Below, piece by piece: positions 33,955-49,382 of a DNA stretch of 64,000 nucleotides. The notes under the pieces are model-generated. The model was not told where the DNA came from. It worked only from the letters and a program-made list of their open reading frames with translations, and made no database searches. The first letter of the stretch is position 1; each line of letters opens with the position of its first letter. The stretch comes from Gammaproteobacteria bacterium (GTDB lineage: Bacteria; Pseudomonadota; Gammaproteobacteria; 21-64-14): positions 22,983 through 86,982 of the forward strand of contig JALUXX010000016.1 in the NCBI GenBank assembly GCA_027013145.1, given 5' to 3'. Made by a program: the position numbers and the translations under genes.

Positions 33955-33970
33955 TGGCACGTTCGTTGCG
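33955..33970 (+). promoter_or_regulatory. Sigma-54 (RpoN) promoter, -24/-12 elements TGGCAC-N5-TTGCG
   Basis: Perfect match to TGGCAC-N5-TTGC(A/T) with correct GG/GC spacing, ~110 nt upstream of the CDS starting at 34078. A sigma-54 activator is encoded 10 kb downstream. Confidence 0.55.
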
Positions 33971-34077: not shown

Positions 34078-35514
34078 ATGATGGAGACTTGTTCCCGAGG
34101 ACACCGAAGGGGCGTTGCCCGACTCGGCCGGGTCGTGCCGCGGGCGAAAGGCGTCGGCGTAGCGCTCGCCGGCGGCCTGCTGCTTCTGGGCGGGGTAGGA
34201 AACGCCGCGGCCCGCTCCTGGGAGTTGAACGGGCCGGCGTGGCACCTCCCGACACCCGCGCATTCGCGCGCGATGGGGGTGCCCGGGCGGGCGCCCGCGA
34301 GTGGGTTCGCCGGAAGCTGGCAGAACGTGGATCGCAATACGCGCGGTCTCACGCGCGTGGATATCGTGCGCGCCGGTGCGGGTTACCGAGTCCGGGCCTG
34401 GGGCCGCTGTCACCCCCGTGACTGCGACTGGGGGAGCGCACCGGCGCAGATCTACGCCCCGTCGCCGTCGGCACGGCGCGACGTGGCGCTCACGGCGCAG
34501 TTCCGCGAGCCGAGCGGAACGATGACCCTGGTGCTCCATAACCGCGGGAGCCGGCTGAGCGCGGAGGTGTTTCGGGCGTTCGATCCGGCGCACGCCTCCG
34601 GGCGCCGCAATTATCTGATGACCGCGCAACTGACCCGTTCGGCCACCCGGCCGAGCGTCGGCATGGGCGGCGCCGCTCCATCGGGGTCCGCGGGTACGAG
34701 GCCACCGGCCGGCGGGCGTCCCGCCGGCGCGCAGGCGCGCTTCCGGGTCATCGTCACCGGTTTCACCGTGAACCAGCAGACCTGGGACGACGCCCTTAAC
34801 CATGACGGAAAAGGAGACGAGGTGTTCCTGCTCACGCACGTGGCCGAGCTGAGCTCATCCGGGAAGGAGGTGCTCGCCTCGGATGTCCGCTCACGCGTGA
34901 TGGGCGATACCAACGGCTGGAAGGGAAGGGTGCACGCGGGGACGGCATGGACGGGTATCTTCGGCGGTCCGCGCGGCGGGCTGGCGACGGGGGATCAGTA
35001 TCCCAGCACGCGCCCCTGGCAGGTGCGGGGACGGGTCTTCGAAGACCGTGCGCCGGAACTCGTGTGGCAGGGAACACTCCGGAGGGGGGACGGCGGCGTG
35101 CTGATCGTACCGACCATCTGGGAATGGGACGAGGCCGGCGGAGATGCGATCGTCCGCGACTGGGCGGCGCTGGTGCAGAAGCTGGACAAGGCCGCGGGGC
35201 CTCTGATCAACGCCGCCAGCGGCGGGGAGGCGAAGCCGTTCGTCGACGCGGCCGGCGCCACATGGGGCGTGCTGCGCAGCAACGAGTTGGCCAGGGTGCT
35301 CGGGCACGCCGCCACCCGTCCCATCGGCCTGCGCGAGGCGGGCAAGGGTCGTCAGGTGTTCCGGCCGACGATCATCCGGCTCAACTACGACATCGCCGAG
35401 CGCCTGCTGCGCAGCAACTTCGGCAAGGGGCCCGGTGTGCTGGAGGTCCAGTATCAGGATTCCTCGCGCCTGCGCGGGGACTACACGCTGTACGTGAAGG
35501 TGCAGCGCATGTGA
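34078..35514 (+). CDS. Hypothetical secreted protein (478 aa)
   Basis: GAGGAG RBS. N-terminal signal-like hydrophobic segment. High GC3. No recognisable domain. Confidence 0.55.
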   Translation: MMETCSRGHRRGVARLGRVVPRAKGVGVALAGGLLLLGGVGNAAARSWELNGPAWHLPTPAHSRAMGVPGRAPASGFAGSWQNVDRNTRGLTRVDIVRAGAGYRVRAWGRCHPRDCDWGSAPAQIYAPSPSARRDVALTAQFREPSGTMTLVLHNRGSRLSAEVFRAFDPAHASGRRNYLMTAQLTRSATRPSVGMGGAAPSGSAGTRPPAGGRPAGAQARFRVIVTGFTVNQQTWDDALNHDGKGDEVFLLTHVAELSSSGKEVLASDVRSRVMGDTNGWKGRVHAGTAWTGIFGGPRGGLATGDQYPSTRPWQVRGRVFEDRAPELVWQGTLRRGDGGVLIVPTIWEWDEAGGDAIVRDWAALVQKLDKAAGPLINAASGGEAKPFVDAAGATWGVLRSNELARVLGHAATRPIGLREAGKGRQVFRPTIIRLNYDIAERLLRSNFGKGPGVLEVQYQDSSRLRGDYTLYVKVQRM

Positions 35515-35595
35515 CGAGGCCGCCGCCGGCGCCCGCACGGGCGCCGGCGGGCCGACGGCCAATGGGCGGACGGGTCGGTACAAGGGGGGAATTAC

Positions 35596-36021
35596 ATGAG
35601 CATCGGACATCGGATACGGGGTTCGGGAGCGGTCGCCAATTCGCTGCGCGCCGCGCTTTTTGGGGTGCTTCTCGGCAGCGCCGGTGCCGCTTCCGCGGCC
35701 CCGGGCGGGATGGTCGGCCTGGTCTACGACTTCGGGCGCAGTGTGGGCGTGACGATCAAGTTGCTTTCGTCCAATCATCGGCACCGGGCCGTGGGCGAGA
35801 TCGGCGTTTCGTACTTTCCGTTCTCGCGGACGGGGCGTTTCGGCCTCGATGTCGGCGGCGGCTACAACCTGACGAAGTCGTCCGTGACCGTCGGCTGGGA
35901 TTTTCTCGGCAGGACGGTGCAGATCGGCGCCGGTTACGTCAACACGGTGGAGGACCATGCGGCCGCGGCGCCACCGCCCGCGCCCCCGCCACCGATCTTC
36001 TCGAAGCCGACGGTGCAATGA
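35596..36021 (+). CDS. Small hypothetical secreted protein (141 aa)
   Basis: Signal peptide (LFGVLLGSAGAASAAPG), beta-rich Gly/Val composition, Pro-rich tail. Confidence 0.45.
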   Translation: MSIGHRIRGSGAVANSLRAALFGVLLGSAGAASAAPGGMVGLVYDFGRSVGVTIKLLSSNHRHRAVGEIGVSYFPFSRTGRFGLDVGGGYNLTKSSVTVGWDFLGRTVQIGAGYVNTVEDHAAAAPPPAPPPPIFSKPTVQ

Positions 36022-36030
36022 GTCGCCGGG

Positions 36031-36696
36031 GTGGTGGTGGCGGCGCGCCAGGGTCGCGGAGACCGGTGGTCCCGGCACGGAGCGGGGGGGGCGCCGCCGG
36101 CGCGCCCGCTCCGGACGGCGGTGCTCGCGTGGGCCCTTTTCGCCATGGGTCCGGCGTCGTGGGCGATGGGCGCAGGGGGGCCGCGGTGGACCATCGGCAG
36201 GGCGCAGATCGTGGGTTCTCCCCGGGAGACGGTGGGGCGCGCCGGGCTCTATCTCGAGTTGAGTCTGCGCAATACCGGTGCGTTGCGGCGCGCTCCGGTC
36301 CGGATATTCGGCCGCTGGAGGCGCGTGAACCCGCATCCCCAGCGAAGGACCGCACGCAATGGTGCGGCACAGGCGTGGCGGGGGACGCCCGGTGCAACGG
36401 CCTGGCGCCCGCGTCCGCCGGCGTCCGGCGGCGGGCGCCGTTGGCTTCCCGGTCCGGGGCCGACGGAAGAGGAACGCCACGCGGAGGAAACCGGGCAGGC
36501 ACGGGGCACGCTGCCGGCGGGAATGCGCCTGTTGGGGCGCTACAGATCGGATCTGAGCCTGGGCTACACGGCAATACTGCGCGTTCCGCTGGCCGCGTTG
36601 GGCCCGGCCCCCGGATCGGCTCCGGTGGTCGACGTCGCGGTGATGACGGGAGTGGTGGTCACCGATCGGCGCTTCGTGGGAGTCGGAATGGAGTGA
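36031..36696 (+). CDS. Possible hypothetical protein (weak call; start undefined)
   Basis: Strong GC3 bias throughout the frame, but no clear start/RBS and odd composition. The overlapping minus-strand ORFs look like shadows. Confidence 0.3.
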   Translation: MVVAARQGRGDRWSRHGAGGAPPARPLRTAVLAWALFAMGPASWAMGAGGPRWTIGRAQIVGSPRETVGRAGLYLELSLRNTGALRRAPVRIFGRWRRVNPHPQRRTARNGAAQAWRGTPGATAWRPRPPASGGGRRWLPGPGPTEEERHAEETGQARGTLPAGMRLLGRYRSDLSLGYTAILRVPLAALGPAPGSAPVVDVAVMTGVVVTDRRFVGVGME

Positions 36697-36766
36697 GGTG
36701 CGCGGGAGAGGCGCTTCGGGAGACGGTCAACGCGGTTCTGTCATGAGTCTGACAGTGGAGGCGGAT

Positions 36767-37495
36767 ATGTCTTTTCACAGGGTCTGTATCGTCTGGCGGG
36801 GGGCGGTTGCGGCCGTCATGGTGTTCGGCATGGCCGGTTGCGCGACCGCGAGCCGACCGACGGTCGACAACTCGTACACCAGTCACGAACTGGCAAGCCT
36901 GCCGCCGCTGCGGGCGCGGCCGAAGACGGTGACCATCTATCGGTTCACCACCAGTGTCGACGAGGTGTCGGCGCGGGCGGCCACCGACATGTTCACGACG
37001 GCGCTGATCAAGTCTCACCGGTTCGCCGTACTCGAGCGACAGCGGCTCAGTGAGGGTGTGTTGCGCGAGAAACAGATGAACTCCCAGGGCATGACCACCG
37101 GAAACGTCGGTCGCGCCACCCTGGCCGGCGCCGACTACATCTTTTACGGGACGGTCAGCGAAGCCAACGCGGATGCGTCGGATACGGGCGTGGGCGCGAC
37201 TCTCCGCGGGCTCGGTGTGGAGGGCAGCGGGCAGAAGGCGGTGATCGCGGTCGATGTGCGGGTCGTCGATGCGCATACCGGCGCCGTTCTCGACGCGGTC
37301 GACGTGCGCCGCCCGGTGACGCAGGGTGGTGTCGGCGTATCCGGGGTCGGGGCGTTCGTCCAGAGCTTCACGCACACCGATCTCCAGGGGGCCGACGTCT
37401 CGCTCCACAAGGCGCACAAGGAGGGTGTGGACCGCGCGCTGCGCGAGTGCATCGAAGAGGCCGTCTATCAGCTCGCGAGGCGGTTCTCCAATTGA
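36767..37495 (+). CDS. CsgG-family outer-membrane lipoprotein (curli-type secretion channel family)
   Basis: GGAGG RBS. Lipobox (VFGMAGC). CsgG-like segments (TIYRFTTSVDEV, FTTALIKSHRFAVLERQRL, ADYIFYGTVSE, AVIAVDVRVVDAHTGAVL). Confidence 0.65.
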   Translation: MSFHRVCIVWRGAVAAVMVFGMAGCATASRPTVDNSYTSHELASLPPLRARPKTVTIYRFTTSVDEVSARAATDMFTTALIKSHRFAVLERQRLSEGVLREKQMNSQGMTTGNVGRATLAGADYIFYGTVSEANADASDTGVGATLRGLGVEGSGQKAVIAVDVRVVDAHTGAVLDAVDVRRPVTQGGVGVSGVGAFVQSFTHTDLQGADVSLHKAHKEGVDRALRECIEEAVYQLARRFSN

Positions 37496-37500
37496 TCGCC

Positions 37501-38685
37501 ATGAACGTCCGATGGGGTCTTTGGGTCGGCCTGCTGGTCTGCGCCCCGCTCGCGGCGAATACGGTCCGGGCCGGCGGTTGGCGGGTGACGGAGCTGCGTC
37601 TCAATACGCCGACGATGGAGGGCCAGTGGTACGCGTCGGATTCCCCCCTGGCGCGGGGTCTCGGGATCCGGGCGGGTTATATGGCGTTGTATACGATCGA
37701 GGTGTTGCCGGGTCTCCAATATACCCTGCAGCTGCGTGTGCCGCGCGCAGCGGAGCGGGTCCGGGTGTACGCCTACGATCGCTGGCCGCTGTCGGCCGGA
37801 GCACGCCGGTTCGCGTTGCCGAGCGGACCGGTCACCTGGCCGCCGCGTGCACGACGGATCTCGTACCGCTGGCGGATCGGGATCTCCCCGCGGAGCACCG
37901 GGACACTGTTGTACCTCATGGTGTGGTTTCCGCGCCCCTGGCCGTCGGGTCCGGTGACGGCCCCGGTCCTGCTCGTGCGTTCGCCGCCCATCGTTCCGAC
38001 CCACCGCATCGGACGCGGCATAACCTATCTGGACGGCCCGCGCGATCTGCTGCTCTCCGGCGAGTCCGGTGCGGTCTCCTATACGCTGCTGCCGGCCGCG
38101 CCGGCCGTGCCGGTCCGGTCCGCCCGGGTGTGGACGGCCCCGCGCGATCTGGTCATCAATGGGCGTTTCAGCGCGGGTCTGCGAGGCTGGGTGCCGCGGA
38201 CCGGCGCCGACGGTCGCGGCCTGGAGCCGACCATTGGATCGCAGGGACTGCGTCTTGCGCCGGGCACCGGAGTGCGCTCGCAACTCGATGCGGACGTCGC
38301 CCGTGCACGGACGCTGGTTCTTTGGGCCGACGTGCGTCTCGGGCGGGCGACGAGCGGCGATGGCGGGCGGACGACCGGTGACCCCGGACTGACGATCGCG
38401 CTGTGCTTGCGCGACGAGGCGGGAAGACGCCACTGCGGTCGACATTCGGATCGGATCGAGTTCTTCAGGCAGGGCAAGGGAAACGCGGCGACGGCCGTCG
38501 CCGCGGGCCGTATCCGGCGCCTGATCCCGGCGGGAACCTGGTACCGGTTCCAGATCGATCTCGCCGGCGGTCCGTCGCATCCCGCGCACATCGACTCGAT
38601 CGATCTGTCGGCGGGTACGGCCGGGACGGCGTGGGTGCGCGAGGTGCATCTCATACGAGGGGGGACGAGTGATGCGGGTGATTGA
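37501..38685 (+). CDS. Hypothetical secreted protein (394 aa)
   Basis: Signal peptide (MNVRWGLWVGLLVCAPLAANTVRA). No recognisable domain. Confidence 0.5.
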   Translation: MNVRWGLWVGLLVCAPLAANTVRAGGWRVTELRLNTPTMEGQWYASDSPLARGLGIRAGYMALYTIEVLPGLQYTLQLRVPRAAERVRVYAYDRWPLSAGARRFALPSGPVTWPPRARRISYRWRIGISPRSTGTLLYLMVWFPRPWPSGPVTAPVLLVRSPPIVPTHRIGRGITYLDGPRDLLLSGESGAVSYTLLPAAPAVPVRSARVWTAPRDLVINGRFSAGLRGWVPRTGADGRGLEPTIGSQGLRLAPGTGVRSQLDADVARARTLVLWADVRLGRATSGDGGRTTGDPGLTIALCLRDEAGRRHCGRHSDRIEFFRQGKGNAATAVAAGRIRRLIPAGTWYRFQIDLAGGPSHPAHIDSIDLSAGTAGTAWVREVHLIRGGTSDAGD

Positions 38686-39730
38686 AACCTGGAGCACTGC
38701 GGTTCTCGTGCTGGTGTTGGCGGTGGCCGCGGACCCGTTGTGTGCGGGCCCGCTCGATCGCGGCCCGATGGCGCCGCGCGTCAATCCGGCGACCAATGAC
38801 ATGCTGCGTGTGCCCGGCGTGGTCGGTATGGACCGGCAGGGTGCGCTCGCGACGCTCGAGCAGGCCGGCCTGAACCCGCGGATCCACGAGCTGCGCAAGG
38901 TCACGAAACGCTATGCCGGCCGCGAGGGTACGGTGGTGCGCCAGTTACCGCTTCCGGGCGGTATGGCGATGTTGGGGTCCTCGGTGAGCATCACAGTGTA
39001 TGACCCCGGCGGCAGTGAGGGCGGCGTTGGTGCGGGCGGCCCCCCCGCTCAGCCGCCGTCTTATCCCGACAACGGCGGGCCCGGCTACGATGGCTCCGAC
39101 TACGGCGGTTACGACACCGGCGGGGCGCCGCCGTACGGGTCCGGGTCCGGCGGCGTCGATAGCGGTGGCGCCGGCGATGCGGGAGCGGTTGGTGGTGGAG
39201 ACGCGGGACCGCCGTTGCCGGGTGGATGGAGCGGTCCGAGCGCGCCGGCGGCCGGGGCCGGTGAAGGTCCCGCCCCCGCAGACGCGGGCGGGGCACCGGC
39301 CCCTGGACCCGCCACCGGCAACCTCCCGCTGAAGGCCCCCGCACCGTTGCCGGTACCCTCATCCCCGCCGTCGCAACCCCTCCCGGCCGGTCCGCTTCCG
39401 GTGCCCAAGCCGGTCGCGGTGCCGTCGACGCCCGCGCCCGCGTTGCACGCGCCGATCCCCGAGCCGAAGGCGCCGGTGGGCGGAACCGGCGCACGCCCGA
39501 AGCCTTCCCTGCGGCCGCCGCCGGAGCGCCGGTTGCCGCCTCCGCGACCGCAGCCCCCGGCGCCGGTCGTGACGCCCGCGCCGGTTCCGGTATCGCCGCA
39601 TATTCCGAAGCCCGTTGTGCCGATCCCGCCGGACGGGTCCGGCACGGGTGCTGCGCCGGTTCCACGGCCGGCCTTGCCGAGACGGAAAGAACCCCGCCGC
39701 CTGTCGGCCCCGCCCGAAGGCGTTCCGTAG
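38672..39730 (+). CDS. Secreted protein with one PASTA-like domain and a ~230-aa Pro/Gly/Ala-rich tail
   Basis: Signal peptide. PASTA-like module (VPGVVGMDRQGALATLEQAGLNPRIHELRK...GTVVRQLPLPGGMAMLGSSVSITV) followed by low-complexity PxxP-type repeats. Confidence 0.5.
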   Translation: MRVIETWSTAVLVLVLAVAADPLCAGPLDRGPMAPRVNPATNDMLRVPGVVGMDRQGALATLEQAGLNPRIHELRKVTKRYAGREGTVVRQLPLPGGMAMLGSSVSITVYDPGGSEGGVGAGGPPAQPPSYPDNGGPGYDGSDYGGYDTGGAPPYGSGSGGVDSGGAGDAGAVGGGDAGPPLPGGWSGPSAPAAGAGEGPAPADAGGAPAPGPATGNLPLKAPAPLPVPSSPPSQPLPAGPLPVPKPVAVPSTPAPALHAPIPEPKAPVGGTGARPKPSLRPPPERRLPPPRPQPPAPVVTPAPVPVSPHIPKPVVPIPPDGSGTGAAPVPRPALPRRKEPRRLSAPPEGVP

Positions 39731-39784
39731 CCGGGCGGCGTGGGTATCCACGGGGTCGTAGACAACTGCAAAGAGGGGATCGTC

Positions 39785-40516
39785 ATGGAAAACAAGCAGC
39801 ACGGCGTCACCGCAACTTCAAAGGGCAACCGGCCGCACGCTTCCGCGCCGACCGGGATCGTTGCGACCTTCGTCGCCGTCGTAACCCGGCCGGCGGAGTT
39901 CTTTTCCGCAATGCCCCGGACGGGCGGCTACGGTCAACCGCTGATCTTCATGGTCGTCATGGGCGTCGCGGGCGGGCTCATACGTGCCGTGCTCGGCATG
40001 CTCGGTCTCCTCACCGCGGGATCCACGGCCACGGCGCTGACCGGAATCATCCTCGCGCCGGTCCTGATCCTGATCTTCGGCTTCATCGGTGCAGCGATCC
40101 TGTTCATCATCTGGAAGATGATGGGTTCGCAGCGGGACTTCGAGACCGCATACCGGTGCGTTGCATACGGCAGCGCGATTTCGCCTTTGACGCAATTCCT
40201 TATGCTGATACCCTATCTGGGCATCGTCTTGGCCCTCGGATGGTGGGCGTTCATCCTCGTGGCCGCCAGCACCCAGGTTCACGATGTGGGGCGGAGTGTC
40301 GCGATCACAGTCTTCGGCGGGATCGCCGCGGTGCTGGCCCTGGCGGGTATCGGTATGCAGTTCACGGCTCAGCGGATGGTGAATTCGCTGACCAGGACGC
40401 AGCAGCAACTGCAACTCGATCAGACCCGGGATCCGGCCAAGGCCGCACAGGATCTTGGCAAGCTGCTCCAGCAGATGCAGAAGGCGTCCGGGCAGGGAGG
40501 CAGCGCGGGGCGCTGA
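39785..40516 (+). CDS. Yip1-domain (DUF1282-like) integral membrane protein
   Basis: GAGGGG RBS. Five TM helices in the Yip1-like arrangement. Conserved Gly-rich TM segments. Confidence 0.55.
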   Translation: MENKQHGVTATSKGNRPHASAPTGIVATFVAVVTRPAEFFSAMPRTGGYGQPLIFMVVMGVAGGLIRAVLGMLGLLTAGSTATALTGIILAPVLILIFGFIGAAILFIIWKMMGSQRDFETAYRCVAYGSAISPLTQFLMLIPYLGIVLALGWWAFILVAASTQVHDVGRSVAITVFGGIAAVLALAGIGMQFTAQRMVNSLTRTQQQLQLDQTRDPAKAAQDLGKLLQQMQKASGQGGSAGR

Positions 40517-40852
40517 CCCTCCACGCGGCCGAGCCGCAGCTTTCCGTTTCGTGTTCGACACGGCCGTATGCCGCGCGCCCGGCGCCGACCGCGCGGGGAC
40601 ACGTCCTTCATCTCTCGGCATCCCCCAGCGGGCATATGGGCGTTCCCGGCTGCGGCCCGTCCGGCACCGGCGCTATAATTCGGTCAAGGGCGAGGGATCC
40701 CGTCGGCGCCGGCCGTGCCGCGCTCGCGGCGCGACCTGGCGGCGGGATGCGACGGGGACGTTCGGCAGGGACGCGCGCGGCGCGTGGTCGGCGCCCGATG
40801 TGCCGGTCGGTACCCGCCCGCAGATGGTTTTCGGCCGAGTCGGGGGGCTCGC

Positions 40853-43800
40853 ATGGAACAGGGGGGTGATCCGCAGGGGGACGTCTTCTCCGGTCGTCTG
40901 TCGTTACCGCGGCAGCCGTGCCCGGTGTACCGGCGCGGGCGCCTACATCGGCGCATCGGGGAGGCCCTCGAAGCGGGCGCGTCGGTGTGGGTTTATGGGC
41001 AGCCGGGGGCCGGCAAGACGACCCTGGTTGCGAGCTATCTCGAGGCAGAACCGAACCCGGCGTTCTGGTACACGCTGACGTCGGAGGACGCGGATCCGCC
41101 GACCTTCTTCCGCCACCTGGGTTCGCTCCTCGGGGATCGAGCGGGGTCCGCGGGGCTGCCGCAATGGGCCCCGAACCTCGGCTACGACCCGCTGGCGTTC
41201 GCGCGTAACTTCTTCGCCGTCTTCTGCGAGTCCCTCCCCGCGAAGGCCGTCCTCGTTCTCGACGATCACCACGAGGTCGAGGGGCGCGGGGCGATGGACA
41301 CGCTCGTTCGCGCCCTCCTGGAGGCTTTCGCCGGACATCGGTCCTGCGTCGTGATCAGTCGGAGCCGGCCACCGGAAACGCTGGTGCGAGCGATGGCCCG
41401 CGGCGCGTTGGAGTGCGTCGACGGCGAGGATTTGCGTTTCAGCGACGAGGAGGCGCGGGGCATCGTTGAGAAACGGGTGCCCGCGCCCTTGCGTGGGGCC
41501 ATCGACGTCAAAGGCGTGAATCGCCGTGCACGCGGGTGGGCTTTGGGCCTGGTCCTGTTGGTGCAACAGGCCCTGTCGGGCGGCGCGGCGGCGGACGCGG
41601 CGGGACCCGCACCGGATACGATCCTGGGTTACTTCGCGGGCGAGTTCGCGAGCCGTGAAAGGGACGACGATCTCGATCTGCTGATCACTGCATCGTTGTT
41701 TTCATACCTGACCTACGGGATCGCGCGCAAGATCGCGGGGCCGGCCGGCGGTGCCGCGTGGATCGACGATCTATGTCGGAAGAACCTCTTCGTCACACGT
41801 TACCAGTCCGGGTCGGGTGAAACGGCTTTCCGGCTCCATCCCTTGTTTCGGGACTACCTGCACTGGGAGGCCGCGCGGCGGCTGAGTGAGCCGGAGTTGA
41901 ACCGGCGCCGTGTTCTGGCCGCCGCAACGCTTGCGGAATCCGGCCGTCGGGAGGAGGCGGTGGGGTTGTATCTCGCGGGGCGCGCGTGGGAGCAGGCGGA
42001 GGCCGAATTGCTCGACCTCGCGTGGGTACGTTACCAGTCGGGAGAGATCGAGACCCTGAGACACTGGCTCGGCGCCCTTCCCCAGGAGCGCGTCCGGCGC
42101 AGCGGATGGCTGTCCCTGTGGGCGGGCGCCTGCGCGGCGGCGGCCGAGGTCGGCGCAGGACAGGAGGCGCTGCAGCGCGCGTACGCCCTCCTGCGCCCGG
42201 AGGCGGACGCGACGGGGACGTTGCTGGCCTGGTGCTTCATGGTCGAAGGGCAGGTGCTCGGGTGGAGCGATCCCCGGGACCTCGATGCGCTGATCGCGGA
42301 TTTCGCCGACCTGGAGCCGATGCTGGGGCGGGTCGAGCGCCCCCTCGCCGGGCGGGCGATGCTGGCGATGTTCGCGGCGGTCGCGGTCCGCGCCCCCTAT
42401 CCGCCCCGGGCGGACGCGTGGGCGCAACGGGTCGAAGCAGGGTTGCGGGAAGCGGACGAGGAGATCGCGCGCGCGTTCGGGACCGCGCAGTTGGCTTCGT
42501 TCTACGGTTTCAACCGCGGCCGTTTCGAGAAGGCCGCGGCGGTCGTGAACGAACTCGCCGCACGGGCGGGCAGCGAGGAATCCAACCCCGTCGCGCAAAT
42601 CATCTACCTGGCCTATCAAGCGGTGGTCGAACTGTGGGCGCAGGGGGAGCCGGCCCGAAGTCTGGAGACGGTGCGCAAGGGAATCGCGGCGGCGGAGGCG
42701 AGCGGGATACGGTTGCTCGACTTCCTACTCCAGTCCACCGGTGCCTGGTGTGCCCTGGCGGCGGGCGATTACGACGCTGCGCGTCACCACCTCGGCGCGA
42801 TGGGGTCCGAATTGAATCGGCGCGCCTGGTTGAACCGCTGCGTGTTTCATGACACTTCGGCGCTCCTCGCCTGTCACTCGGGCGACTTGGCGGCGGCGCG
42901 TGGGGGTTCGGAGCAAAGTCTCGAATTCGCCCGGCGCAGCGGGATGCCCTTTGCGGAAGCGGCCTGTCTGATGACGGCCTCGAGGGTGCGGAGTCTGTCG
43001 GGAGAATGGGAGGAGGCCGTGCGGCTCAGGGAGGCGGCCGCCGCGATCGGTCGCAGTATGGACAACCCGTTCATCCTCGCCCAACTGGCATGGTTCGAGT
43101 CCTCGGATTACCTGGAGCGCGGGCGGGAGGACGCGGCGGTCGTCGCGTTGCGGAAGGGCTTTTCGGCGGGCCGGCTCGCCGGTTTGCATGGAAACCTCTG
43201 GCTGCGCCGCGAGGAGCTGGCGCGTCTCTGCGCGTTCGCGCTGCGCCACGAGATCGAGACCGACTACGTACGGCGGCGCATCGCCCGCAACCGCCTGCGC
43301 GCGCCGCAGGCCGAGGCCGGTCCGGAATGGCCGTTTATGCTACGGGTACGTGTACTCGGTGGACTGAAGGTCGAGGTGCTGGGCTCGGATCGATATCGGA
43401 CGCTGCGCCTCAAGGGACGCCCGGCACAACTTCTCGAGGCCCTTCTGTGGCTCGGGCCGGAGTCGGTCAGTCAGGAGCGCCTGAGCGACTGCCTGTGGCC
43501 CGATGCGGACGGGGATGCGGCGCGTCGCAACATCGACGTGACCGCGCACCGTCTCCGCAAGGCACTGGGTGACGATCGCCTGTTGGCGTTCGAGCAAGGG
43601 CGGGTGGGCCTGGCGCCGGGGCTGGCGTGGAGCGATCTCGGCGGGCTCGAGGCGACGCGACAGGCGCTGGTCGCCGAGCTTCAAGGACAGCCGGAGGCGT
43701 CCCGGGTGGGGGCCCTGCAGCAGCGCTTGCTCGACTGGGCCGACGCGCTCGCCCGCACCACCCCGGAATCCGTGCCCGCGGCGCTTGCCGGGGCATGTGC

Positions 43801-44092
43801 GGCGCGGCGCAGCGAATTCGTCTCCACCCTCGACCGCCTGGCCGCGTATTGGCAAAAACAGGAGGTCTGGCGCAAGGAGGTGGAGGCGTTGCAGGCACGG
43901 GTTCGCCTCGAGCCGGCGGCCGAGCGTCCCCATCTGCGGATGATGCGTATCTACGTGGCACAGGGCCTGCACGGGGAGGCATTGGGTGCCTACGAGGCCT
44001 GCCGGCGAAACCTGGAGCGTAGCGTCGGAATCCCGCCGGGGCCGGAAATCGAGGCCGCGCGGGAAGAAATCTTGCGAATTACAAATAGTTGA
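40853..44092 (+). CDS. Large ATPase transcriptional regulator: N-terminal P-loop NTPase, central helical/TPR-like region, C-terminal OmpR-type winged-helix DNA-binding domain plus BTAD (SARP-like domains in inverted order)
   Basis: Walker A (VYGQPGAGKTTLV). Near the C-terminus, an OmpR/SARP-type DNA-binding segment (VLGGLKVEVLGSDRYRTLRLKGRPAQLLEALLWLGPESVSQERLSDCLW) is followed by a BTAD-like segment (RMMRIYVAQGLHGEALGAYEACRRNLERSVGIPPGPEI). Confidence 0.65.
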   Translation: MEQGGDPQGDVFSGRLSLPRQPCPVYRRGRLHRRIGEALEAGASVWVYGQPGAGKTTLVASYLEAEPNPAFWYTLTSEDADPPTFFRHLGSLLGDRAGSAGLPQWAPNLGYDPLAFARNFFAVFCESLPAKAVLVLDDHHEVEGRGAMDTLVRALLEAFAGHRSCVVISRSRPPETLVRAMARGALECVDGEDLRFSDEEARGIVEKRVPAPLRGAIDVKGVNRRARGWALGLVLLVQQALSGGAAADAAGPAPDTILGYFAGEFASRERDDDLDLLITASLFSYLTYGIARKIAGPAGGAAWIDDLCRKNLFVTRYQSGSGETAFRLHPLFRDYLHWEAARRLSEPELNRRRVLAAATLAESGRREEAVGLYLAGRAWEQAEAELLDLAWVRYQSGEIETLRHWLGALPQERVRRSGWLSLWAGACAAAAEVGAGQEALQRAYALLRPEADATGTLLAWCFMVEGQVLGWSDPRDLDALIADFADLEPMLGRVERPLAGRAMLAMFAAVAVRAPYPPRADAWAQRVEAGLREADEEIARAFGTAQLASFYGFNRGRFEKAAAVVNELAARAGSEESNPVAQIIYLAYQAVVELWAQGEPARSLETVRKGIAAAEASGIRLLDFLLQSTGAWCALAAGDYDAARHHLGAMGSELNRRAWLNRCVFHDTSALLACHSGDLAAARGGSEQSLEFARRSGMPFAEAACLMTASRVRSLSGEWEEAVRLREAAAAIGRSMDNPFILAQLAWFESSDYLERGREDAAVVALRKGFSAGRLAGLHGNLWLRREELARLCAFALRHEIETDYVRRRIARNRLRAPQAEAGPEWPFMLRVRVLGGLKVEVLGSDRYRTLRLKGRPAQLLEALLWLGPESVSQERLSDCLWPDADGDAARRNIDVTAHRLRKALGDDRLLAFEQGRVGLAPGLAWSDLGGLEATRQALVAELQGQPEASRVGALQQRLLDWADALARTTPESVPAALAGACAARRSEFVSTLDRLAAYWQKQEVWRKEVEALQARVRLEPAAERPHLRMMRIYVAQGLHGEALGAYEACRRNLERSVGIPPGPEIEAAREEILRITNS

Positions 44093-44136
44093 AATGATGC
44101 GCCGCTTGCGGTTCCGCAACGCGCGCATGGCCGCGC

Positions 44137-46152
44137 TTGCGAATCTGTAAGCCGGATGTAAGCCCAGCCGTTTCATTATCGTTCCCGACATCGGAACCAT
44201 CGTCGGGAGGGGGGGTGGCCAGCAGCGCCACGACATGGACCACGCCGGGCGGGGCGGAGGCGCCGGGGGCGCCCCGCTACGGGCTGCAGGTCAAGCTCGG
44301 CCTCAGCGTGCTCGTCTCGACGCTGCTATCGGCGTTCATGATCGCCGGCAGCGTGTACCAGTTCGGTCGCGACCGGGTCGACCGTGCCTATGTCGCCGAG
44401 TCGGAGGCGATGGTGCAGGCGGCGAGCCTCGCGTTTTCCCAGGCGCTCGGGCGCCGGGATTTCGTGCTGCTCGACGCCCTGGTCCACGAGCTTCAGAGCC
44501 GCCGTAGACTTCGCATCCAGCAGGCCTACGTCCTCGATCCCACCGGGCGGGTCGTCGCCCACTCGATCGGCTCCGAGTACGGCAAGCACTACCCGGTCCC
44601 TGCGCTGTTGCGGGCGCGGCATCCCTCGCGCCTGTCGCAGGTCGTTTCCTCGACCGGGCCGACCTTCAAGGTCGTGAGCCTGCTGCAAACCCAGGGCCAT
44701 ACCCTCGGCGCCCTCGTGGTTCGTTTCGACGCCGCCGAGCTGGAGCAACGGCTGCGCTCGGAGGTCGTCTGGGTGCTCGAGACCACGCTCCCCATTCTGC
44801 TGTTGTCGGGAATCATCCTGCTGCTGCTCGGGCGCGGAATGACGCGGCGCCTTCAGACCCTTCGCACCCGCATCCGCGCGGTCGGGCGCGGCGAACGACC
44901 CGAACCCGTCCCGGTCCTGGGGAACGACGAGGTCGCGCAGCTTTCCCGGGACTTCAATCAGATGCAGAAAGACCTTGAGGCCCTCCAAGAAAAGGACCGC
45001 GATGCGACGGAGACCATCCGGGGGCTCAATCGCGAACTCACGACCCAGCTTCGCACCGTCGAGCGCCTGAAGGAACAGCTCGCGGAGGAGAATTCCGACC
45101 TGCGCGAGCAGCTCAGGAGCATGGCCGGGGACGCCGAATTCCTCGGGGCATCCGCTCCCGTGCGAAAGCTTCTGGAACAGGCGGCACAGACCGCGGGGCT
45201 CCCGATCAACGTCCTGATCACGGGGGAAAGCGGCACGGGCAAGGAACTCCTCGCGAGCTATATCCACCGGCGCAGCGGGAGGGAGTCGGGACCGTTCGTG
45301 AAGATCAACTGCGCCGCGCTGCCGGTCAATCTGGTCGAGAGCGAACTGTTCGGCCATGAAAAAGGCGCTTTTACCGGTGCGGTTTCGCAGCGGGTGGGAA
45401 AGTTCCAACTCGCCCACGGCGGGACGCTGCTGCTCGACGAGGTCGGGGAGTTGCCTCCCGAGTCGCAGTCCAAACTGCTGCGTGCCCTGCAGCAGGGAGA
45501 GATTCAGCGGGTGGGCGGCAACAAGCCGATCGTGGTCGACGTTCGCGTGATCGCAGCGACGAACCGCGATCTGGCCGAGGACGTGAGGCGGGGCACCTTC
45601 CGGGAGGATCTCTATTACCGGCTCAAGGTCATCGAGCTTCGCTGTCCCGCGCTGCGCGAGCGCATCGATGATCTGCCCATCCTCGCGCAGCATTTCATCG
45701 AACAGTTCGGCCGAAAGCTCGGGCGCAGTGTCGTCGGGATCTCGCCCAGCGCATTGCGCCGGCTCGGCCGCTACCACTGGCCCGGGAACGTCCGCGAGTT
45801 GGAGCACGCCGTGGCCCGTGCGGTCGCCCTGAGCGGGACCCGGGTCCTCGGGCCGGAAGACTTCGATTTCCTGCCCGTCTCCGGGCCGAGCGGCGGCGGC
45901 CGCGAGGCCGGCGGCGGCGGAATCGAAGCGCTCGCCCGCGCGTGCGGGCTCCGTGAGGAGAATCTGGGGGAGGCGCCGTGGGCGCGCATCATGGCGGCCT
46001 GCGAGCGCGTCTGTCTGACCGCCGCCCTCGATCGAAACCGAAATCAAAAAGACGCCGCGGCGATGCTGGGCATCACGCCGACCAAGATCCATCGCCTGAT
46101 CCGGAAACACCGCCTCAAGGGCGAGCCGCAGGGATCGGCCCCGGGAGGCTGA
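44137..46152 (+). CDS. Membrane-anchored sigma-54-dependent transcriptional activator (bEBP): periplasmic sensor between two TM helices, HAMP, AAA+ sigma-54 interaction domain, Fis-type HTH; no receiver domain
   Basis: TM1 (LSVLVSTLLSAFMIAGSVY), ~170-aa extracytoplasmic region, TM2 (VLETTLPILLLSGIILLLLG), HAMP plus coiled coil. AAA+ motifs: Walker A (GESGTGKE), the sigma-54 contact motif GAFTGA (EKGAFTGAVS), Walker B (LLLDEVGEL) and RVIAATNRDL. C-terminal HTH (QKDAAAMLGITPTKIHRLIRK). An alternative GTG start near 44215 follows GGAGGG. Confidence 0.8.
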   Translation: MRICKPDVSPAVSLSFPTSEPSSGGGVASSATTWTTPGGAEAPGAPRYGLQVKLGLSVLVSTLLSAFMIAGSVYQFGRDRVDRAYVAESEAMVQAASLAFSQALGRRDFVLLDALVHELQSRRRLRIQQAYVLDPTGRVVAHSIGSEYGKHYPVPALLRARHPSRLSQVVSSTGPTFKVVSLLQTQGHTLGALVVRFDAAELEQRLRSEVVWVLETTLPILLLSGIILLLLGRGMTRRLQTLRTRIRAVGRGERPEPVPVLGNDEVAQLSRDFNQMQKDLEALQEKDRDATETIRGLNRELTTQLRTVERLKEQLAEENSDLREQLRSMAGDAEFLGASAPVRKLLEQAAQTAGLPINVLITGESGTGKELLASYIHRRSGRESGPFVKINCAALPVNLVESELFGHEKGAFTGAVSQRVGKFQLAHGGTLLLDEVGELPPESQSKLLRALQQGEIQRVGGNKPIVVDVRVIAATNRDLAEDVRRGTFREDLYYRLKVIELRCPALRERIDDLPILAQHFIEQFGRKLGRSVVGISPSALRRLGRYHWPGNVRELEHAVARAVALSGTRVLGPEDFDFLPVSGPSGGGREAGGGGIEALARACGLREENLGEAPWARIMAACERVCLTAALDRNRNQKDAAAMLGITPTKIHRLIRKHRLKGEPQGSAPGG

Positions 46153-46396
46153 GGTCGTCGCTTCTCGGGTGGGCTGCCGTTCACCGCACGACCGGCGGTT
46201 CGACGGACGGGCGCCGCCCGAGTCCGGCTCGTCGTTTGCGACCCGTCGCGGCGGCCGGCGTTTCCGCAGCCGGCCGCGAATCCGGCGAACGGGTCTTGTA
46301 AAAATGAATTTCAATATCGAAACGCTTTCGGTGCCGGAGACGCGGCCACCCACACTGATAAACACCAACTTACTGTTGTTCAGAGGTTTTTCTTTG

Positions 46397-46412
46397 TGGC
46401 CCGGCTCTTGCT
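46397..46412 (+). promoter_or_regulatory. Candidate sigma-54 promoter TGGCCC-N5-TTGCT upstream of the OmpA-fusion gene
   Basis: GG and GC dinucleotides at the canonical 12-nt spacing, ~185 nt upstream of ATG 46595. The -24 element is imperfect (TGGCCC instead of TGGCAC). Confidence 0.4.
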
Positions 46413-46594
46413 TGGCACTTGTCCCGATACGCCGGGGTCTCGTGGTCTGCCCCGAAGACATGTCCCAAAGGATGGAGATGAACGGGCCATGCCACGATTC
46501 GGCTCGCGCCGTCCCCGGCCGAGGCGTCCGGTGGGCGCGCAGCCGCAAGAGCATGTGGTTCGGCCGTCTGCCGGGCGATGAAGAGGATCGCAGA

Positions 46595-47545: not shown

Positions 47546-47592
47546 GCGGTTCAAAAAACATCAATGTATCAGAAGTCTTGGGGTACTACATC

Positions 47593-48611: not shown

Positions 48612-48972
48612 AATCTGTTGGCTGCGCCACGACTGTCAATCGTCCGCCGGCCAGTTTGTCCGACGGAGGCGATTGAAACAGGGGCGCGATGAAGGAACTT
48701 GCCGCAATCGTTATGGCCGTGGCATTCACTGCCATGCCGATCGACGCGGCGACCGCGGGGTGCCGGACGGGGGCTGGGTGCCGGACACGATGAAGGGCTT
48801 GCGCACAAGCCTCCCGCGCCTGCCTGCGCCGCCGCCGGAACCGGGCGACCCGGGCGGTCGCTCAACGCCCTGGGGCGCGCGGCTGCGCGTCGCGCCCTTG
48901 CGCGGGTGGGAGGGACGCTGGATGTCGCCCTGCGAGGACGTCCGGTGCCTGGCGGTAACCGAGGAGAAAGAC

Positions 48973-49317: not shown

Positions 49318-49382
49318 GCCTGGGTGACGATCGAAAGGAACGGCGGACACGCGTGGCCGGCGAAAGACATAGGAGAGGCGTC

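What the first reader, a model, noticed from the sequence alone, without database searches (positions are those of the whole stretch)
40853..44092. 1080-aa ATPase regulator with SARP domains in inverted order (NTPase first, OmpR-type DNA-binding plus BTAD last)
Classical SARP/AfsR regulators are N-terminal winged helix plus BTAD, then NB-ARC ATPase, then TPR. Here the Walker-A ATPase (GQPGAGKTT) is N-terminal, a long helical/TPR-like region is in the middle, and the OmpR-type DNA-binding segment plus BTAD are at the extreme C-terminus.

That is a permuted STAND-like signalling regulator. Such large one-component ATPase regulators often gate specialised gene sets, here presumably the surrounding secreted-protein genes together with the sigma-54 activator next door.
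Basis: seen in the sequence. Interest (0 to 1): 0.5.

Follow-up and report, generated by a model that had tools for sequence, protein, structure and literature searches.

The report
MalT-type ATPase regulator with SARP output
This gene encodes a large ATP-driven switch protein built like the E. coli maltose regulator MalT, but with the DNA-binding "SARP" module of Streptomyces antibiotic regulators at its tail. It belongs to a large, unstudied family for which I could predict the DNA site it binds and the neighbouring gene it most likely turns on.

Summary
Window 40853-44092 (+) encodes a 1,079-aa protein: an N-terminal P-loop STAND ATPase, a long helical-repeat middle, and a C-terminal OmpR-type winged helix plus BTAD.

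The interpretation needs correcting.
- **Not a permuted AfsR.** The ATPase module is MalT-type, not the NB-ARC type of AfsR. This is a MalT-like regulator whose LuxR output was exchanged for a SARP module.
- **Not rare.** At least 1,394 clusters at 50% identity match the sensor-plus-SARP half, mostly in Proteobacteria. I found no paper on the family. Reviews call SARPs actinobacterial and N-terminal.

New here is a 22-bp tandem repeat, TGTAAGCC-N3-TGTAAGCC.
- It lies 54 bp after the stop codon, 9 bp upstream of a -10-like CATTAT, in front of the adjacent sigma-54 activator gene.
- It is conserved in orthologous loci and recurs downstream of distant homologues.
- A metagenome scan with the consensus box alone found a family regulator just upstream in 41 of 120 contigs.

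A perfect sigma-54 promoter heads the upstream CsgG-like envelope operon. The likely circuit is STAND-SARP, then sigma-54 activator, then envelope genes. Nothing is tested experimentally.

The parts
40853..44092 (+). Gene for the 1,079-aa MalT-type STAND regulator with a C-terminal SARP module
   Evidence: ORF and translation; Pfam, NCBIfam and PDB matches; AF2 model with pLDDT 91; more than 100 full-length homologues
40925..41881 (+). Nucleotide-binding oligomerisation module (NBD, helical domain, winged-helix domain), residues ~25-343, MalT-type
   Evidence: MalT NF003420 over residues 15-422. MalT 8bob over residues 47-414 and by Foldseek, target TM-score 0.80. WHD_MalT PF25873 is on record.
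40997..41023 (+). Walker A motif GQPGAGKTT (residues 49-57); G52, G54 and K55 are invariant in the family
41249..41266 (+). Walker B motif VLVLDD (residues 133-138). D137 is invariant. Position 138 is D here, as in MalT, but N in 64 of 70 family members.
41837..41839 (+). His329 codon in the winged-helix motif HPLFRDYL. It is invariant in the family and aligns with the His of MalT's YHPLFGNFL. This is the position where STAND proteins carry the nucleotide-sensing His (the role is inferred).
41888..43297 (+). Arm plus helical-repeat (TPR-like) sensor region, residues ~346-815; ligand unknown
   Evidence: AF2 secondary structure shows ~20 paired helices. TPR_12 is sub-threshold. Foldseek matches TPR proteins and the STAND-TPR protein 6mfv.
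43328..43633 (+). OmpR-type winged-helix DNA-binding domain, residues ~826-927. The recognition helix is residues 887-905 (nt 43511-43567), with invariant R900 and R902.
   Evidence: Trans_reg_C over residues 850-908. AF2 elements. Alignment to AfsR 8hvr_I puts R900 opposite the Arg of AfsR's RLRK; I take this to be base-contacting R92 (PMC10936776). Family conservation.
43634..44086 (+). BTAD (bacterial transcriptional activation domain), residues ~928-1078, seven helices
   Evidence: BTAD over residues 937-1074 at E=7.9e-10. EmbR and AfsR alignments. Foldseek matches to AfsR and EmbR. Seven helices in the model, as described for AfsR (PMC10936776).
44146..44167 (+). Predicted operator: two 11-bp direct repeats, TGTAAGCCgga and TGTAAGCCcag. 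The first 8 bp of each are conserved.
   Evidence: It is the only such site in the 64 kb. It is conserved in orthologous loci L001, L055/L056, L057 and L059 while the flanks diverge.
44174..44179 (+). -10-like hexamer CATTAT, 9 bp after the 8-bp core of the downstream repeat. There is no -35 consensus.
   Evidence: An xAnnnT hexamer sits at this fixed offset in 9 of 12 sites, against 3.5% background. No complete sigma-70 consensus promoter was found in 40400-44400.
44215..46152 (+). Predicted direct target: gene for a membrane-anchored sCache/HAMP sigma-54 enhancer-binding protein. It starts at GTG, 645 aa, with GGGAGG 4 nt upstream.
   Evidence: Pfam HAMP, Sigma54_activat, AAA_lid_14 and HTH_8. 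The start matches the call on L001. The gene follows the regulator in all four orthologous contexts.
33955..33969 (+). Sigma-54 promoter TGGCACGTTCGTTGC, an exact match to TGGCAC-N5-TTGC, ~110 bp upstream of the first gene of the envelope operon
   Evidence: It is the only zero-mismatch site in the window. The same feature is present in L001, in L055/L056, and as a near-match in L059.
34078..40516 (+). Co-directional, tightly spaced gene set: 478 aa, 141 aa, ~191-221 aa, CsgG-like lipoprotein, ~394-412 aa, PASTA-like Pro-rich protein, Yip1-domain membrane protein. Presumed sigma-54-dependent operon and indirect output of the circuit.
   Evidence: The same gene order stands upstream of orthologous regulators in L055/L056 and L059.
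46397..46411 (+). Second sigma-54-like promoter, TGGCCCGGCTCTTGC (1 mismatch), downstream of the activator gene and ~185 nt before the likely OmpA-family start (46595)
   Evidence: It is conserved in L001 (13169), where it precedes a different exported-protein gene.

Best explanation
The gene encodes a one-component, ATP-dependent transcription activator of the STAND class.

Architecture (shown). The switch part (P-loop NTPase, helical domain, winged-helix domain, arm, helical-repeat sensor) is of the MalT/LAL type. The output is a C-terminal SARP module (OmpR-type winged helix plus BTAD) in place of MalT's LuxR-type helix-turn-helix.

Proposed working (inferred by analogy with MalT and AfsR):
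1. Without signal, the ADP-bound protein is closed and autoinhibited.
2. An unknown ligand bound by the repeat sensor, together with ATP, opens it and lets the nucleotide-binding modules associate.
3. Two SARP modules then sit side by side on two 11-bp direct repeats (TGTAAGCC-N3-TGTAAGCC, 44146-44167). These take the place of a -35 element, 9 bp upstream of a -10-like hexamer.
4. The bound modules recruit sigma-70-type RNA polymerase.

Predicted direct target in this window: the adjacent gene for a membrane-anchored sCache/HAMP sigma-54 enhancer-binding protein.

Second, more speculative step: that protein drives the perfect sigma-54 promoter at 33955 (CsgG-like/PASTA/Yip1 envelope operon) and the sigma-54-like promoter at 46397 (OmpA-family and small exported proteins). 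This would make a two-tier sigma-70 to sigma-54 cascade.

Status of each step:
- Shown in silico: the domain architecture, the family size, the conserved box, its geometry, and its statistical linkage to the regulator family.
- Inferred: binding, activation, the ligand, and the cascade.
For: Architecture and fold:
- Pfam, NCBIfam and PDB matches.
- AF2 model with pLDDT 91 and pTM 0.85.
- Foldseek matches MalT at target TM-score 0.80 and the AfsR SARP domain at ~0.58.

Switch motifs are conserved across 70 homologues: Walker A G52/G54/K55, Walker B D137, S169-R170, H329.

DNA-reading helix: R900 and R902 are invariant. R900 aligns with the Arg of AfsR's RLRK, which I take to be base-contacting R92 (PMC10936776).

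Operator in the window and its orthologues:
- The exact repeat is unique in the window.
- The repeat and the following TTTCAxxATCG are conserved in L001, L055/L056, L057 and L059. The regulators there are only ~38-43% identical over the C-terminal half, and the flanking DNA diverges.

Operator across the family:
- TGTAAG pairs are enriched only at an 11-bp period and only on the regulator's strand. Counts are 4, 7 and 20 hits at 0, 1 and 2 mismatches, against roughly 0, 0-2 and 5 for other periods or the other strand.
- A motif-blind scan looked for any 7-mer repeated at period 11 with xAnnnT at the fixed offset. It gave 14 hits in 16.2 kb of downstream flanks (12 of 36 loci), against 1 on the opposite strand and 0.079 per kb in the background.
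- Out-of-sample test: 120 metagenome contigs were retrieved only by ATCTGTAAGNNATCTGTAAG. 41 carry a family regulator upstream on the same strand; in the first 80 contigs checked, 25 of 30 such gaps were 23-456 nt.

Geometry: it matches the published SARP rule. Direct repeats are spaced 11 bp, the 3' repeat lies ~8 bp from the -10, and the box overlaps the -35. In AfsR the first 8 bp of each 11-bp repeat are contacted (PMC10936776, PMC11301090).

Cascade:
- The regulator-activator gene pair is conserved in all four orthologous contexts.
- Perfect sigma-54 promoters head the envelope operon in the window, L001 and L055/L056.
Against: - There is no experimental datum for any family member.
- The ligand is unknown.
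- Trans_reg_C is only just above Pfam's cut-off (27.1 against 26.2 bits). Sequence matches to AfsR and EmbR are weak on their own (E=0.011 and 7e-4).
- A box that overlaps the -35 position could equally serve a repressor.
- The -10 assignment (CATTAT) is a consensus guess with no mapped transcription start.
- Distant homologue loci have no sigma-54 activator nearby. The cascade is therefore specific to this subclade, and its second step rests only on promoter consensus and gene linkage.
- I could not inspect model coordinates, so nothing can be said about autoinhibitory contacts.
- The regulator's own promoter and any feedback are unresolved.
Confidence: 0.7

Rival explanations
1. One reading: a circularly permuted or inverted AfsR-type 'large SARP'. 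The same SARP, NB-ARC and TPR parts would simply be re-ordered.
For: The same three kinds of module are present: SARP, P-loop STAND NTPase and helical repeats. The SARP module resembles that of AfsR in fold.
Against: - The NTPase module matches MalT, not NB-ARC, and WHD_MalT is on record.
- No NB-ARC hit appears at E<=1.
- The nearest relatives outside the family are MalT/LAL proteins with a C-terminal GerE/LuxR domain (P0093, P0096, P0098, P0099, P0104).
- A C-terminal output is the native MalT layout.
Confidence: 0.04
2. The protein is a regulator, but the TGTAAG box is not its site, or it represses rather than activates. Its real targets would lie elsewhere, and the box would belong to another factor.
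For: There are no binding data. The box overlaps the -35 position, where repressors often bind (as noted in PMC11301090). The window holds many other regulators.
Against: - The only element common to all loci that carry the box is the regulator family itself. The linkage holds in loci with quite different neighbours and in contigs selected by the box alone.
- The box has a fixed phase to a -10-like hexamer and no -35 consensus, which fits an activator-dependent promoter.
- BTAD modules are activation domains in every studied case (PMC10936776, PMC10972967).
Confidence: 0.17
3. It is an anti-phage STAND (Avs-like) pattern-recognition protein whose effector happens to be a DNA-binding domain.
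For: It is a large STAND NTPase with a big repeat sensor. Defence and non-defence STAND clades are interspersed (PMC13581612).
Against: - It has no PADLOC match.
- The effector is a transcription-activator module with a conserved promoter-embedded operator.
- It has several paralogues per genome, next to metabolic or exported-protein genes.
- No defence genes are nearby.
Confidence: 0.03
4. It is an artefact: a gene fusion created by misassembly or a frameshift that joins a MalT-like gene to a separate SARP gene.
For: None beyond the unusual order.
Against: - An independent contig carries the same 1,079-aa product.
- The full-length entries among the best 150 representatives, from many samples, are ~1,000-1,100 aa with the same order.
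- The AF2 model is confident across the junction (pLDDT 87-96 over residues 800-860).
Confidence: 0.01

Closest known systems
MalT of Escherichia coli and the LAL (large ATP-binding LuxR-family) regulators
   Same: - The N-terminal STAND nucleotide-binding module is of the same subtype by sequence and fold, including WHD_MalT, Walker A/B and the HPLF histidine motif.
- It is followed by an arm and a helical-repeat sensor.
- The DNA-binding output is at the C-terminus.
- The protein is ~1,000 aa.
- The expected logic is inducer plus ATP leading to self-association and cooperative binding to repeated sites.
   Different: - The output is an OmpR-type winged helix plus BTAD (SARP) rather than a LuxR/GerE helix-turn-helix.
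- It scores far below the MalT equivalog cut-off (103.7 against 537 bits).
- The predicted operator is two 11-bp direct repeats that replace the -35, not MalT boxes.
- The inducer is unknown.
AfsR of Streptomyces coelicolor and other 'large SARPs' (SARP, NB-ARC, TPR)
   Same: - It combines a SARP module with a STAND NTPase and helical repeats.
- The SARP fold matches (target TM-score ~0.58, 24-26% identity), and the BTAD has seven helices.
- The conserved recognition-helix Arg matches.
- The predicted operator has the same design as the afs box: two 11-bp direct repeats with the first 8 bp conserved, overlapping the -35, and the 3' repeat ~8-9 bp from the -10 (PMC10936776, PMC11301090).
- In most family members the gene after the box encodes a small protein. 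This is reminiscent of AfsR activating afsS, but it is an analogy only.
   Different: - The domain order is reversed, with the SARP module last.
- The NTPase is MalT-type, not NB-ARC.
- The hosts are mainly Proteobacteria (plus Nitrospirota, Myxococcota and Acidobacteriota MAGs), not Actinobacteria.
- The repeat sequence is YGTAAG-like.
SARP-LAL regulators (PimR, SanG, FilR) of Streptomyces
   Same: One protein joins a SARP module with an LAL-like ATP-binding half that lacks the LuxR HTH (PMC10972967, PMC3367932). They bind heptameric direct repeats (PMC5930380).
   Different: There the SARP module is N-terminal and the proteins are actinobacterial, cluster-situated antibiotic regulators. Here the SARP module is C-terminal and the context is envelope or exported-protein genes.
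EmbR of Mycobacterium tuberculosis
   Same: It shares the wHTH plus BTAD module. EmbR is the best PDB sequence match for the BTAD end (2fez).
   Different: EmbR carries a C-terminal FHA domain and no NTPase. It is controlled by Ser/Thr-kinase phosphorylation.

Membership tests
[quoted passage not shown] | P-loop NTPase with Walker A and Walker B, followed by a helical domain and a winged-helix domain carrying a conserved His | tested here: met
   GQPGAGKTT, VLVLDD and H329 in HPLF, all conserved in 70 homologues. The fold matches the MalT nucleotide-binding module.
[quoted passage not shown] | Large repeat-type sensor domain C-terminal to the NTPase module | tested here: met
   About 20 paired helices over residues 346-815 in the AF2 model. 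Foldseek matches TPR proteins and the STAND-TPR protein 6mfv. Pfam TPR is only sub-threshold.
MalT / LAL family | MalT-subtype nucleotide-binding module, including WHD_MalT | tested here: met
   NF003420 over residues 15-422 at E=7e-30. 8bob at E=3.6e-16 and target TM-score 0.80. PF25873 WHD_MalT is on record.
MalT / LAL family | C-terminal LuxR/GerE-type helix-turn-helix | tested here: not met
   No GerE hit. The C-terminus is Trans_reg_C plus BTAD.
MalT / LAL family | Score above the NCBIfam MalT equivalog cut-off | tested here: not met
   103.7 bits against a cut-off of 537.
SARP family | OmpR-type winged-helix DNA-binding domain immediately followed by a BTAD | tested here: met
   Trans_reg_C over residues 850-908 and BTAD over 937-1074. 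Foldseek matches the AfsR SARP domain and EmbR. Alignment to AfsR 8hvr_I runs over residues 851-1075.
SARP family | SARP module at the N-terminus, as in all described small, medium, large and SARP-LAL classes (PMC10972967) | tested here: not met
   The module occupies residues ~826-1079 of 1,079.
SARP family | Found in Actinobacteria ('exclusively', PMC10972967) | tested here: not met
   Homologues lie in Burkholderiales and other Beta-, Gamma- and Deltaproteobacteria, and in Nitrospirota, Myxococcales and Acidobacteriota MAGs. The window has Gram-negative features: a sigma-54 system, CsgG-like and OmpA genes. Its PrpC is closest to a Thiohalobacterales MAG among named hits (65%).
SARP family | Binds direct repeats spaced 11 or 22 bp, with the 3' repeat ~8 bp upstream of the -10, overlapping the -35 | tested here: inconclusive
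   A box with exactly this design is linked to the family statistically and by an out-of-sample scan. Binding itself cannot be tested with these tools.
AfsR-type large SARP | NB-ARC-type nucleotide-binding module | tested here: not met
   No NB-ARC match at E<=1; only generic AAA, NACHT and nSTAND traces. The best matches are to MalT.
Anti-phage STAND (Avs and relatives) | Match to a known defence-system model, or a defence-island context | tested here: not met
   No PADLOC hit. The neighbours are envelope, regulatory and propionate-catabolism genes.

The most novel reading that the evidence does not exclude
The gene represents a large, unstudied regulatory module of Gram-negative bacteria that was assembled independently of the actinobacterial SARPs. 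Its parts are:
- a MalT-type STAND switch with a C-terminal SARP output;
- a 22-bp tandem box (atc-YGTAAGnn, twice) placed 9 bp upstream of the -10;
- immediately downstream, a dedicated target gene.

In most members the target encodes a ~60-90-aa protein (consensus MDSYIVRIYRR...AGLVE...F...EL..IL, no Pfam or NCBIfam family). This would be a functional parallel to AfsR activating afsS. In the window's subclade the target has been replaced by a membrane-bound sigma-54 activator, which couples the switch to a sigma-54 envelope regulon.
Probability: 0.5. Interest if true: 0.65.

Novelty: new variant of a known kind. Interest (0 to 1): 0.55.

Why it matters
SARP modules are treated in the literature as an actinobacterial speciality that always sits at the N-terminus and controls antibiotic clusters (PMC10972967, PMC11301090). 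This case changes that picture in four ways.

- **Wider reach of the SARP module.** The same sigma-adaptation type of output appears to have been grafted onto a MalT-type switch. More than a thousand sequence clusters, mostly proteobacterial, match the sensor-plus-SARP half.
- **A directly testable prediction.** There is a conserved, easily recognised operator. Binding site, target gene and promoter geometry can all be checked in a standard reporter or EMSA set-up.
- **A handle on regulons in uncultured bacteria.** Scanning for the box finds the targets.
- **Two leads for follow-up.** One is an unannotated family of small proteins that are the usual targets. The other is, in this window, a two-tier sigma-70 to sigma-54 circuit in front of a CsgG-like envelope operon of unknown function.

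Tried and rejected
- **Conserved neighbourhood across the whole family.** tblastn of all window neighbours against 53 genome loci found nothing outside the near-identical contig. All-against-all clustering of neighbours gave only weak recurrences. The CsgG/Yip1/sigma-54 context is therefore specific to the window's subclade, not a family trait.
- **Other boxes in the window.** Neither strict nor relaxed scans found a second convincing site. I cannot assign further direct targets or autoregulation.
- **Complete sigma-70 promoter consensus around the gene.** None was found.
- **Covariation between recognition helix and half-site.**
  - An early idea that 'DAARR/K' goes with TGTAAGCC did not hold in 23 further regulators that sit upstream of exact TGTAAG boxes. 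Those share SF(D/E)TTLHRLRK instead.
  - The most deviant boxes do go with deviant helices: TGTCCCC with VATRRLRK, and CGTGAG with MTLSRLRK. This is suggestive only.
- **Literature.** Seven full-text searches found no paper on a C-terminal SARP, on proteobacterial SARPs or on the box sequence. The library is incomplete: subscription journals, including the original STAND classification paper, are not covered.
- **Taxonomy of the window.** There is no rRNA and only one tRNA. PrpC gives only a distant named relative, and cluster look-up gave no names.

Full report
**1. The observation.**

The ORF at 40853-44092 (+) runs from ATG to TGA and encodes 1,079 residues. A longer in-frame GTG start at 40715 exists. 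However, the 99%-identical product on an independent contig was called from the same ATG (P0001 on L001), and the family alignment begins near residue 8.

Pfam places the domains as follows:
- AAA_16 and AAA_22 at residues 30-162
- Trans_reg_C at 850-908 (27.1 bits, just above its 26.2 cut-off)
- BTAD at 937-1074 (E=7.9e-10)

The Walker A motif GQPGAGKTT is at residues 49-57.

An AlphaFold2 model built on 70 homologues is confident throughout (mean pLDDT 91, pTM 0.85). It shows, in order:
- an alpha/beta NTPase with helical and winged-helix subdomains
- about 20 paired helices (346-815)
- a beta-sheet/three-helix/hairpin winged helix (826-927)
- seven BTAD helices (928-1078)

**2. What kind of ATPase module it is.**

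- The NCBIfam MalT model matches residues 15-422 at E=7e-30.
- The only significant PDB sequence match for the N-terminal half is E. coli MalT (8bob, residues 47-414, E=3.6e-16). Walker A, Walker B (VLVLDD against LVIDDY) and the HPLF histidine motif align.
- Foldseek's best PDB match is the same MalT chain (target TM-score 0.80). The next is the archaeal STAND-TPR protein 6mfv.
- Pfam WHD_MalT is on record for this protein and for nearly all homologues.
- No NB-ARC match appears at E<=1.
- The nearest proteins outside the family are MalT/LAL regulators that end in a GerE/LuxR domain (P0093, P0096, P0098, P0099, P0104).

So this is not an AfsR-type large SARP turned round. It is a MalT-type STAND regulator whose C-terminal output domain is a SARP module instead of a LuxR helix-turn-helix. 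A C-terminal output is the normal MalT layout.

**3. The SARP module.**

The C-terminal 250 residues match the AfsR SARP domain seen in transcription-initiation complexes (8k60_I/J, 8hvr_I; target TM-score 0.57-0.59, 24-26% identity). They also match EmbR (2ff4).

By sequence, residues 851-1075 align with AfsR 8hvr_I. The end of the BTAD aligns with EmbR. In that alignment the target's R900, in the helix TAHRLRKAL, sits opposite the Arg of AfsR's RTYASRLRK. I take that Arg to be R92, which makes a base contact (PMC10936776). R900 and R902 are invariant in 70 homologues.

**4. How common it is.**

- A word-indexed search found 113 clusters, about 90 of them full length (~1,040-1,090 aa) with WHD_MalT plus BTAD.
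- An exhaustive phmmer search with only the C-terminal 660 residues (sensor plus SARP) found 1,394 representatives at 50% identity with E<=1e-30.
- Among the best 150, the full-length entries are ~1,000-1,100 aa proteins with this segment at the C-terminus. About 30 shorter entries appear to be fragments that end with it.
- Genome hits are mostly Burkholderiales and other Betaproteobacteria. Others are Gamma- and Deltaproteobacteria, Nitrospirota, Myxococcales and Acidobacteriota MAGs. There are often several paralogues per genome.
- Sources already label such proteins 'MalT/DNA-binding SARP family' or 'BTAD domain-containing putative transcriptional regulator'.

The architecture is thus catalogued but, as far as I could find, unstudied. 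Seven full-text searches found nothing on it. Recent reviews state that SARPs are exclusive to actinobacteria and describe only N-terminal SARP modules (PMC10972967; PMC11301090).

**5. Gene context.**

Upstream lies a tightly spaced co-directional set, 34078-40516. It comprises three proteins without Pfam families, a CsgG-like lipoprotein, another unknown protein, a PASTA-like Pro-rich protein and a Yip1-domain membrane protein.

Downstream lies a sigma-54 enhancer-binding protein with two predicted membrane segments, a weak sCache hit, a HAMP domain, the sigma-54 AAA+ domain and a Fis-type HTH.

None of these neighbours recurs next to the 53 distant homologues. But the closer relatives keep the context:
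- P0114 (43% identical over the C-terminal half) keeps both the upstream cluster and the activator gene (L055, L056).
- P0383, a member of P0115's 90%-identity cluster (P0115 is 38% identical to the window protein), also keeps the upstream cluster and the start of the activator gene (L059).
- P0115 itself, on a short contig, keeps the activator gene (L057).

**6. A predicted operator.**

Between the regulator's stop (44092) and the activator gene's start (GTG 44215, preceded by GGGAGG) lies TGTAAGCC-gga-TGTAAGCC (44146-44164). After 9 more bases comes CATTAT (44174-44179).

- It is the only such repeat in the 64 kb.
- In L001, L055/L056, L057 and L059 the two TGTAAG cores, their 11-bp spacing and the following TTTCA(T/A)(T/A)ATCG are conserved. 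The rest of the intergenic DNA diverges.
- The pattern TGTAAG-N5-TGTAAG also occurs next to distant homologues: L008, L024 and L044, plus variants in L013, L031, L035 and L049.

Controls:
- Across all loci, TGTAAG pairs are enriched only at an 11-bp period and only on the regulator's strand. The counts are 4, 7 and 20 at 0, 1 and 2 mismatches, against about 0, 0-2 and 5 elsewhere.
- An xAnnnT hexamer lies exactly 9 bp after the second 8-mer in 9 of 12 sites, against a background of 3.5%.
- A motif-blind scan looked for any 7-mer repeated at period 11 with that hexamer. It finds 14 sites in the 450-nt downstream flanks of 36 loci. The opposite strand gives 1, and the background rate is 0.079 per kb, so the enrichment is about 11-fold. 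The consensus is atc-YGTARSnn.

**7. Out-of-sample test.**

I scanned the metagenome collection with the consensus box alone (ATCTGTAAGNNATCTGTAAG, no protein information). The scan returned 120 contigs, most of them short.
- 41 encode a family regulator whose C-terminus lies upstream of the box on the same strand. In the first 80 contigs checked, 25 of 30 such gaps were 23-456 nt.
- In that first set, nearly all of the 30 boxes with a regulator upstream are followed at the same +9 offset by a hexamer beginning TA.

Given how rare the family is among random contigs, this ties the box to the regulator family as firmly as sequence analysis can.

The design matches the published rule for SARP sites and the AfsR/afs-box structure (PMC10936776, PMC11301090):
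- two 11-bp direct repeats with the first 8 bp conserved
- overlapping the -35 position
- the 3' repeat ~8-9 bp from the -10

**8. What the box controls.**

In the window it precedes the sigma-54 activator gene. Elsewhere the gene after the box usually encodes an exported protein without a Pfam family, a MauG-like di-haem peroxidase, a lactonase-type propeller, a rhodanese, or a paralogous regulator.

The commonest target is a small protein of ~60-90 aa. Its consensus is MDSYIVRIYRRDADKPDEIAGLVEEVGTGEKRAFSSLDELVAILRSPEKKERSKRKKA.
- It starts 61-191 nt after the box in 31 of the 120 box-selected contigs (32 within 500 nt).
- It lies beside 13 of the genome loci.
- It has no Pfam or NCBIfam family.
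- It is absent from the window and its orthologous loci.

**9. The sigma-54 tier.**

- The only exact TGGCAC-N5-TTGC in the window is at 33955-33969, ~110 bp upstream of the first gene of the envelope set.
- The same holds in L001 and L055/L056, and a near-match precedes the cluster in L059.
- A one-mismatch site at 46397 follows the activator gene in both the window and L001.
- Three direct copies and one inverted copy of a 22-nt repeat lie 110-310 bp upstream of the 33955 promoter. They are candidates for the activator's enhancer.

**10. Synthesis.**

Shown:
- the architecture and its MalT-type switch
- the size and taxonomic range of the family
- a conserved SARP-style box linked to the family
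- the local arrangement: box, then activator gene, with sigma-54 promoters on the flanking operons

Inferred:
- the protein binds the box as a side-by-side pair of SARP modules after ligand- and ATP-driven opening and association, as for MalT and AfsR
- it activates a -35-less sigma-70-type promoter
- the activator then turns on the envelope genes

The sensed signal is unknown.

I rate the core model at 0.7. The cascade's second step is weaker, at about 0.5.

Rivals are listed with their tests: a permuted AfsR, a box that belongs to another factor or a repressor role, a defence STAND (no PADLOC hit), and an assembly artefact.

**11. Verdict.**

This is a real feature whose parts were correctly read and whose origin was mis-assigned. 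It is not rare in sequence space, but it is undescribed in the literature I could search. It now comes with a concrete, testable operator and target. It is best filed as a new variant of a known kind: STAND transcription activators, with a MalT-type switch and a SARP-type output.

Noticed in passing
L002, L005, L008, L014, L016, L019, L020, L021, L026, L030, L034, L038, L040 and 32 of the metagenome loci L060-L179 (for example L065 598-790, L067 5588-5780): A family of small proteins (~60-90 aa) is encoded 61-191 nt downstream of the tandem box in 31 of the 120 box-selected contigs (32 within 500 nt). It also lies beside many family regulators in the genome loci. The consensus is MDSYIVRIYRR..P.EIAGLVE.V......F.s.dEL..IL followed by a basic tail. 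It has no Pfam or NCBIfam match. It is absent from the window and its orthologous loci.
   Followed up: partly
window 33643-33713 and 33832-33846: There are three direct copies of a 22-nt repeat (CGACCAATTTCGGGGACAGTGA, at 33643, 33673 and 33692) and one inverted copy. They lie 110-310 bp upstream of the perfect sigma-54 promoter at 33955. They could be enhancer sites for the neighbouring sigma-54 activator. They overlap the 3' end of the PrpD-like ORF.
   Followed up: no
window 44215-46152: The sigma-54 enhancer-binding protein has no receiver domain. Instead it has two hydrophobic segments flanking a ~130-aa region with a weak sCache_3_2 hit, followed by a HAMP domain. That makes it a membrane-anchored, one-component sigma-54 activator, which is an uncommon layout.
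   Followed up: no
window 46169-51300 versus L001 12905-13355: The near-identical contig L001 (93-99% protein identity through the activator gene) lacks the window's OmpA-family gene, two small exported-protein genes and the Gly-rich 714-aa ORF. It continues directly with a homologue (51%) of the window's 51306-51779 gene. This is a ~5-kb strain-level indel immediately after a conserved sigma-54-like promoter (46397 in the window, 13169 in L001).
   Followed up: partly
window 47542-48102, 48099-48611, 51306-51779, 51797-52939 and the N-terminal domain of 46595-47545: Several weakly related small exported proteins share the motif P-x-YPG(S/A) ... (V/L)xxWY..(R/H)L..W(K/R). The same YPGS motif opens the DUF4892-like N-terminal domain of the OmpA-family protein. 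Their function is unknown.
   Followed up: partly
window 41249-41266 (residues 133-138): Walker B is hhhhDD in the window protein, as in MalT, but hhhhDN in 64 of 70 family members. Most of the family may bind ATP yet hydrolyse it poorly, while this subclade keeps the second acidic residue.
   Followed up: partly
L030 13129-16480: Two paralogous regulators stand in tandem. A box (CGTACGCG-att-CGTAAGCG, then TAAGCT) lies between them and a small YLVRIYRQ protein gene follows the second. One family member may therefore activate another.
   Followed up: no
window 49068-51212: This 714-aa ORF has long Gly-rich, low-complexity stretches (GGGGGAGGGGGSG...), a likely internal signal-like segment and no Pfam match. 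It overlaps an 804-aa antisense ORF, so the coding assignment is uncertain.
   Followed up: no
window 28793-33664: A propionate/methylcitrate cluster (AidB-like acyl-CoA dehydrogenase, 2-methylcitrate synthase PrpC, PrpD) lies directly upstream of the envelope operon. The PrpC is 100% identical to a protein on a 324,878-bp public contig. Its closest named relative is 65% identical, from a Thiohalobacterales MAG. The window therefore probably comes from an uncultured gammaproteobacterial lineage.
   Followed up: partly
window 56771-56785: A further sigma-54-like site, TGGCATGGAGATTGC (1 mismatch), lies downstream of the HEAT-repeat protein gene. I did not examine what it precedes.
   Followed up: no
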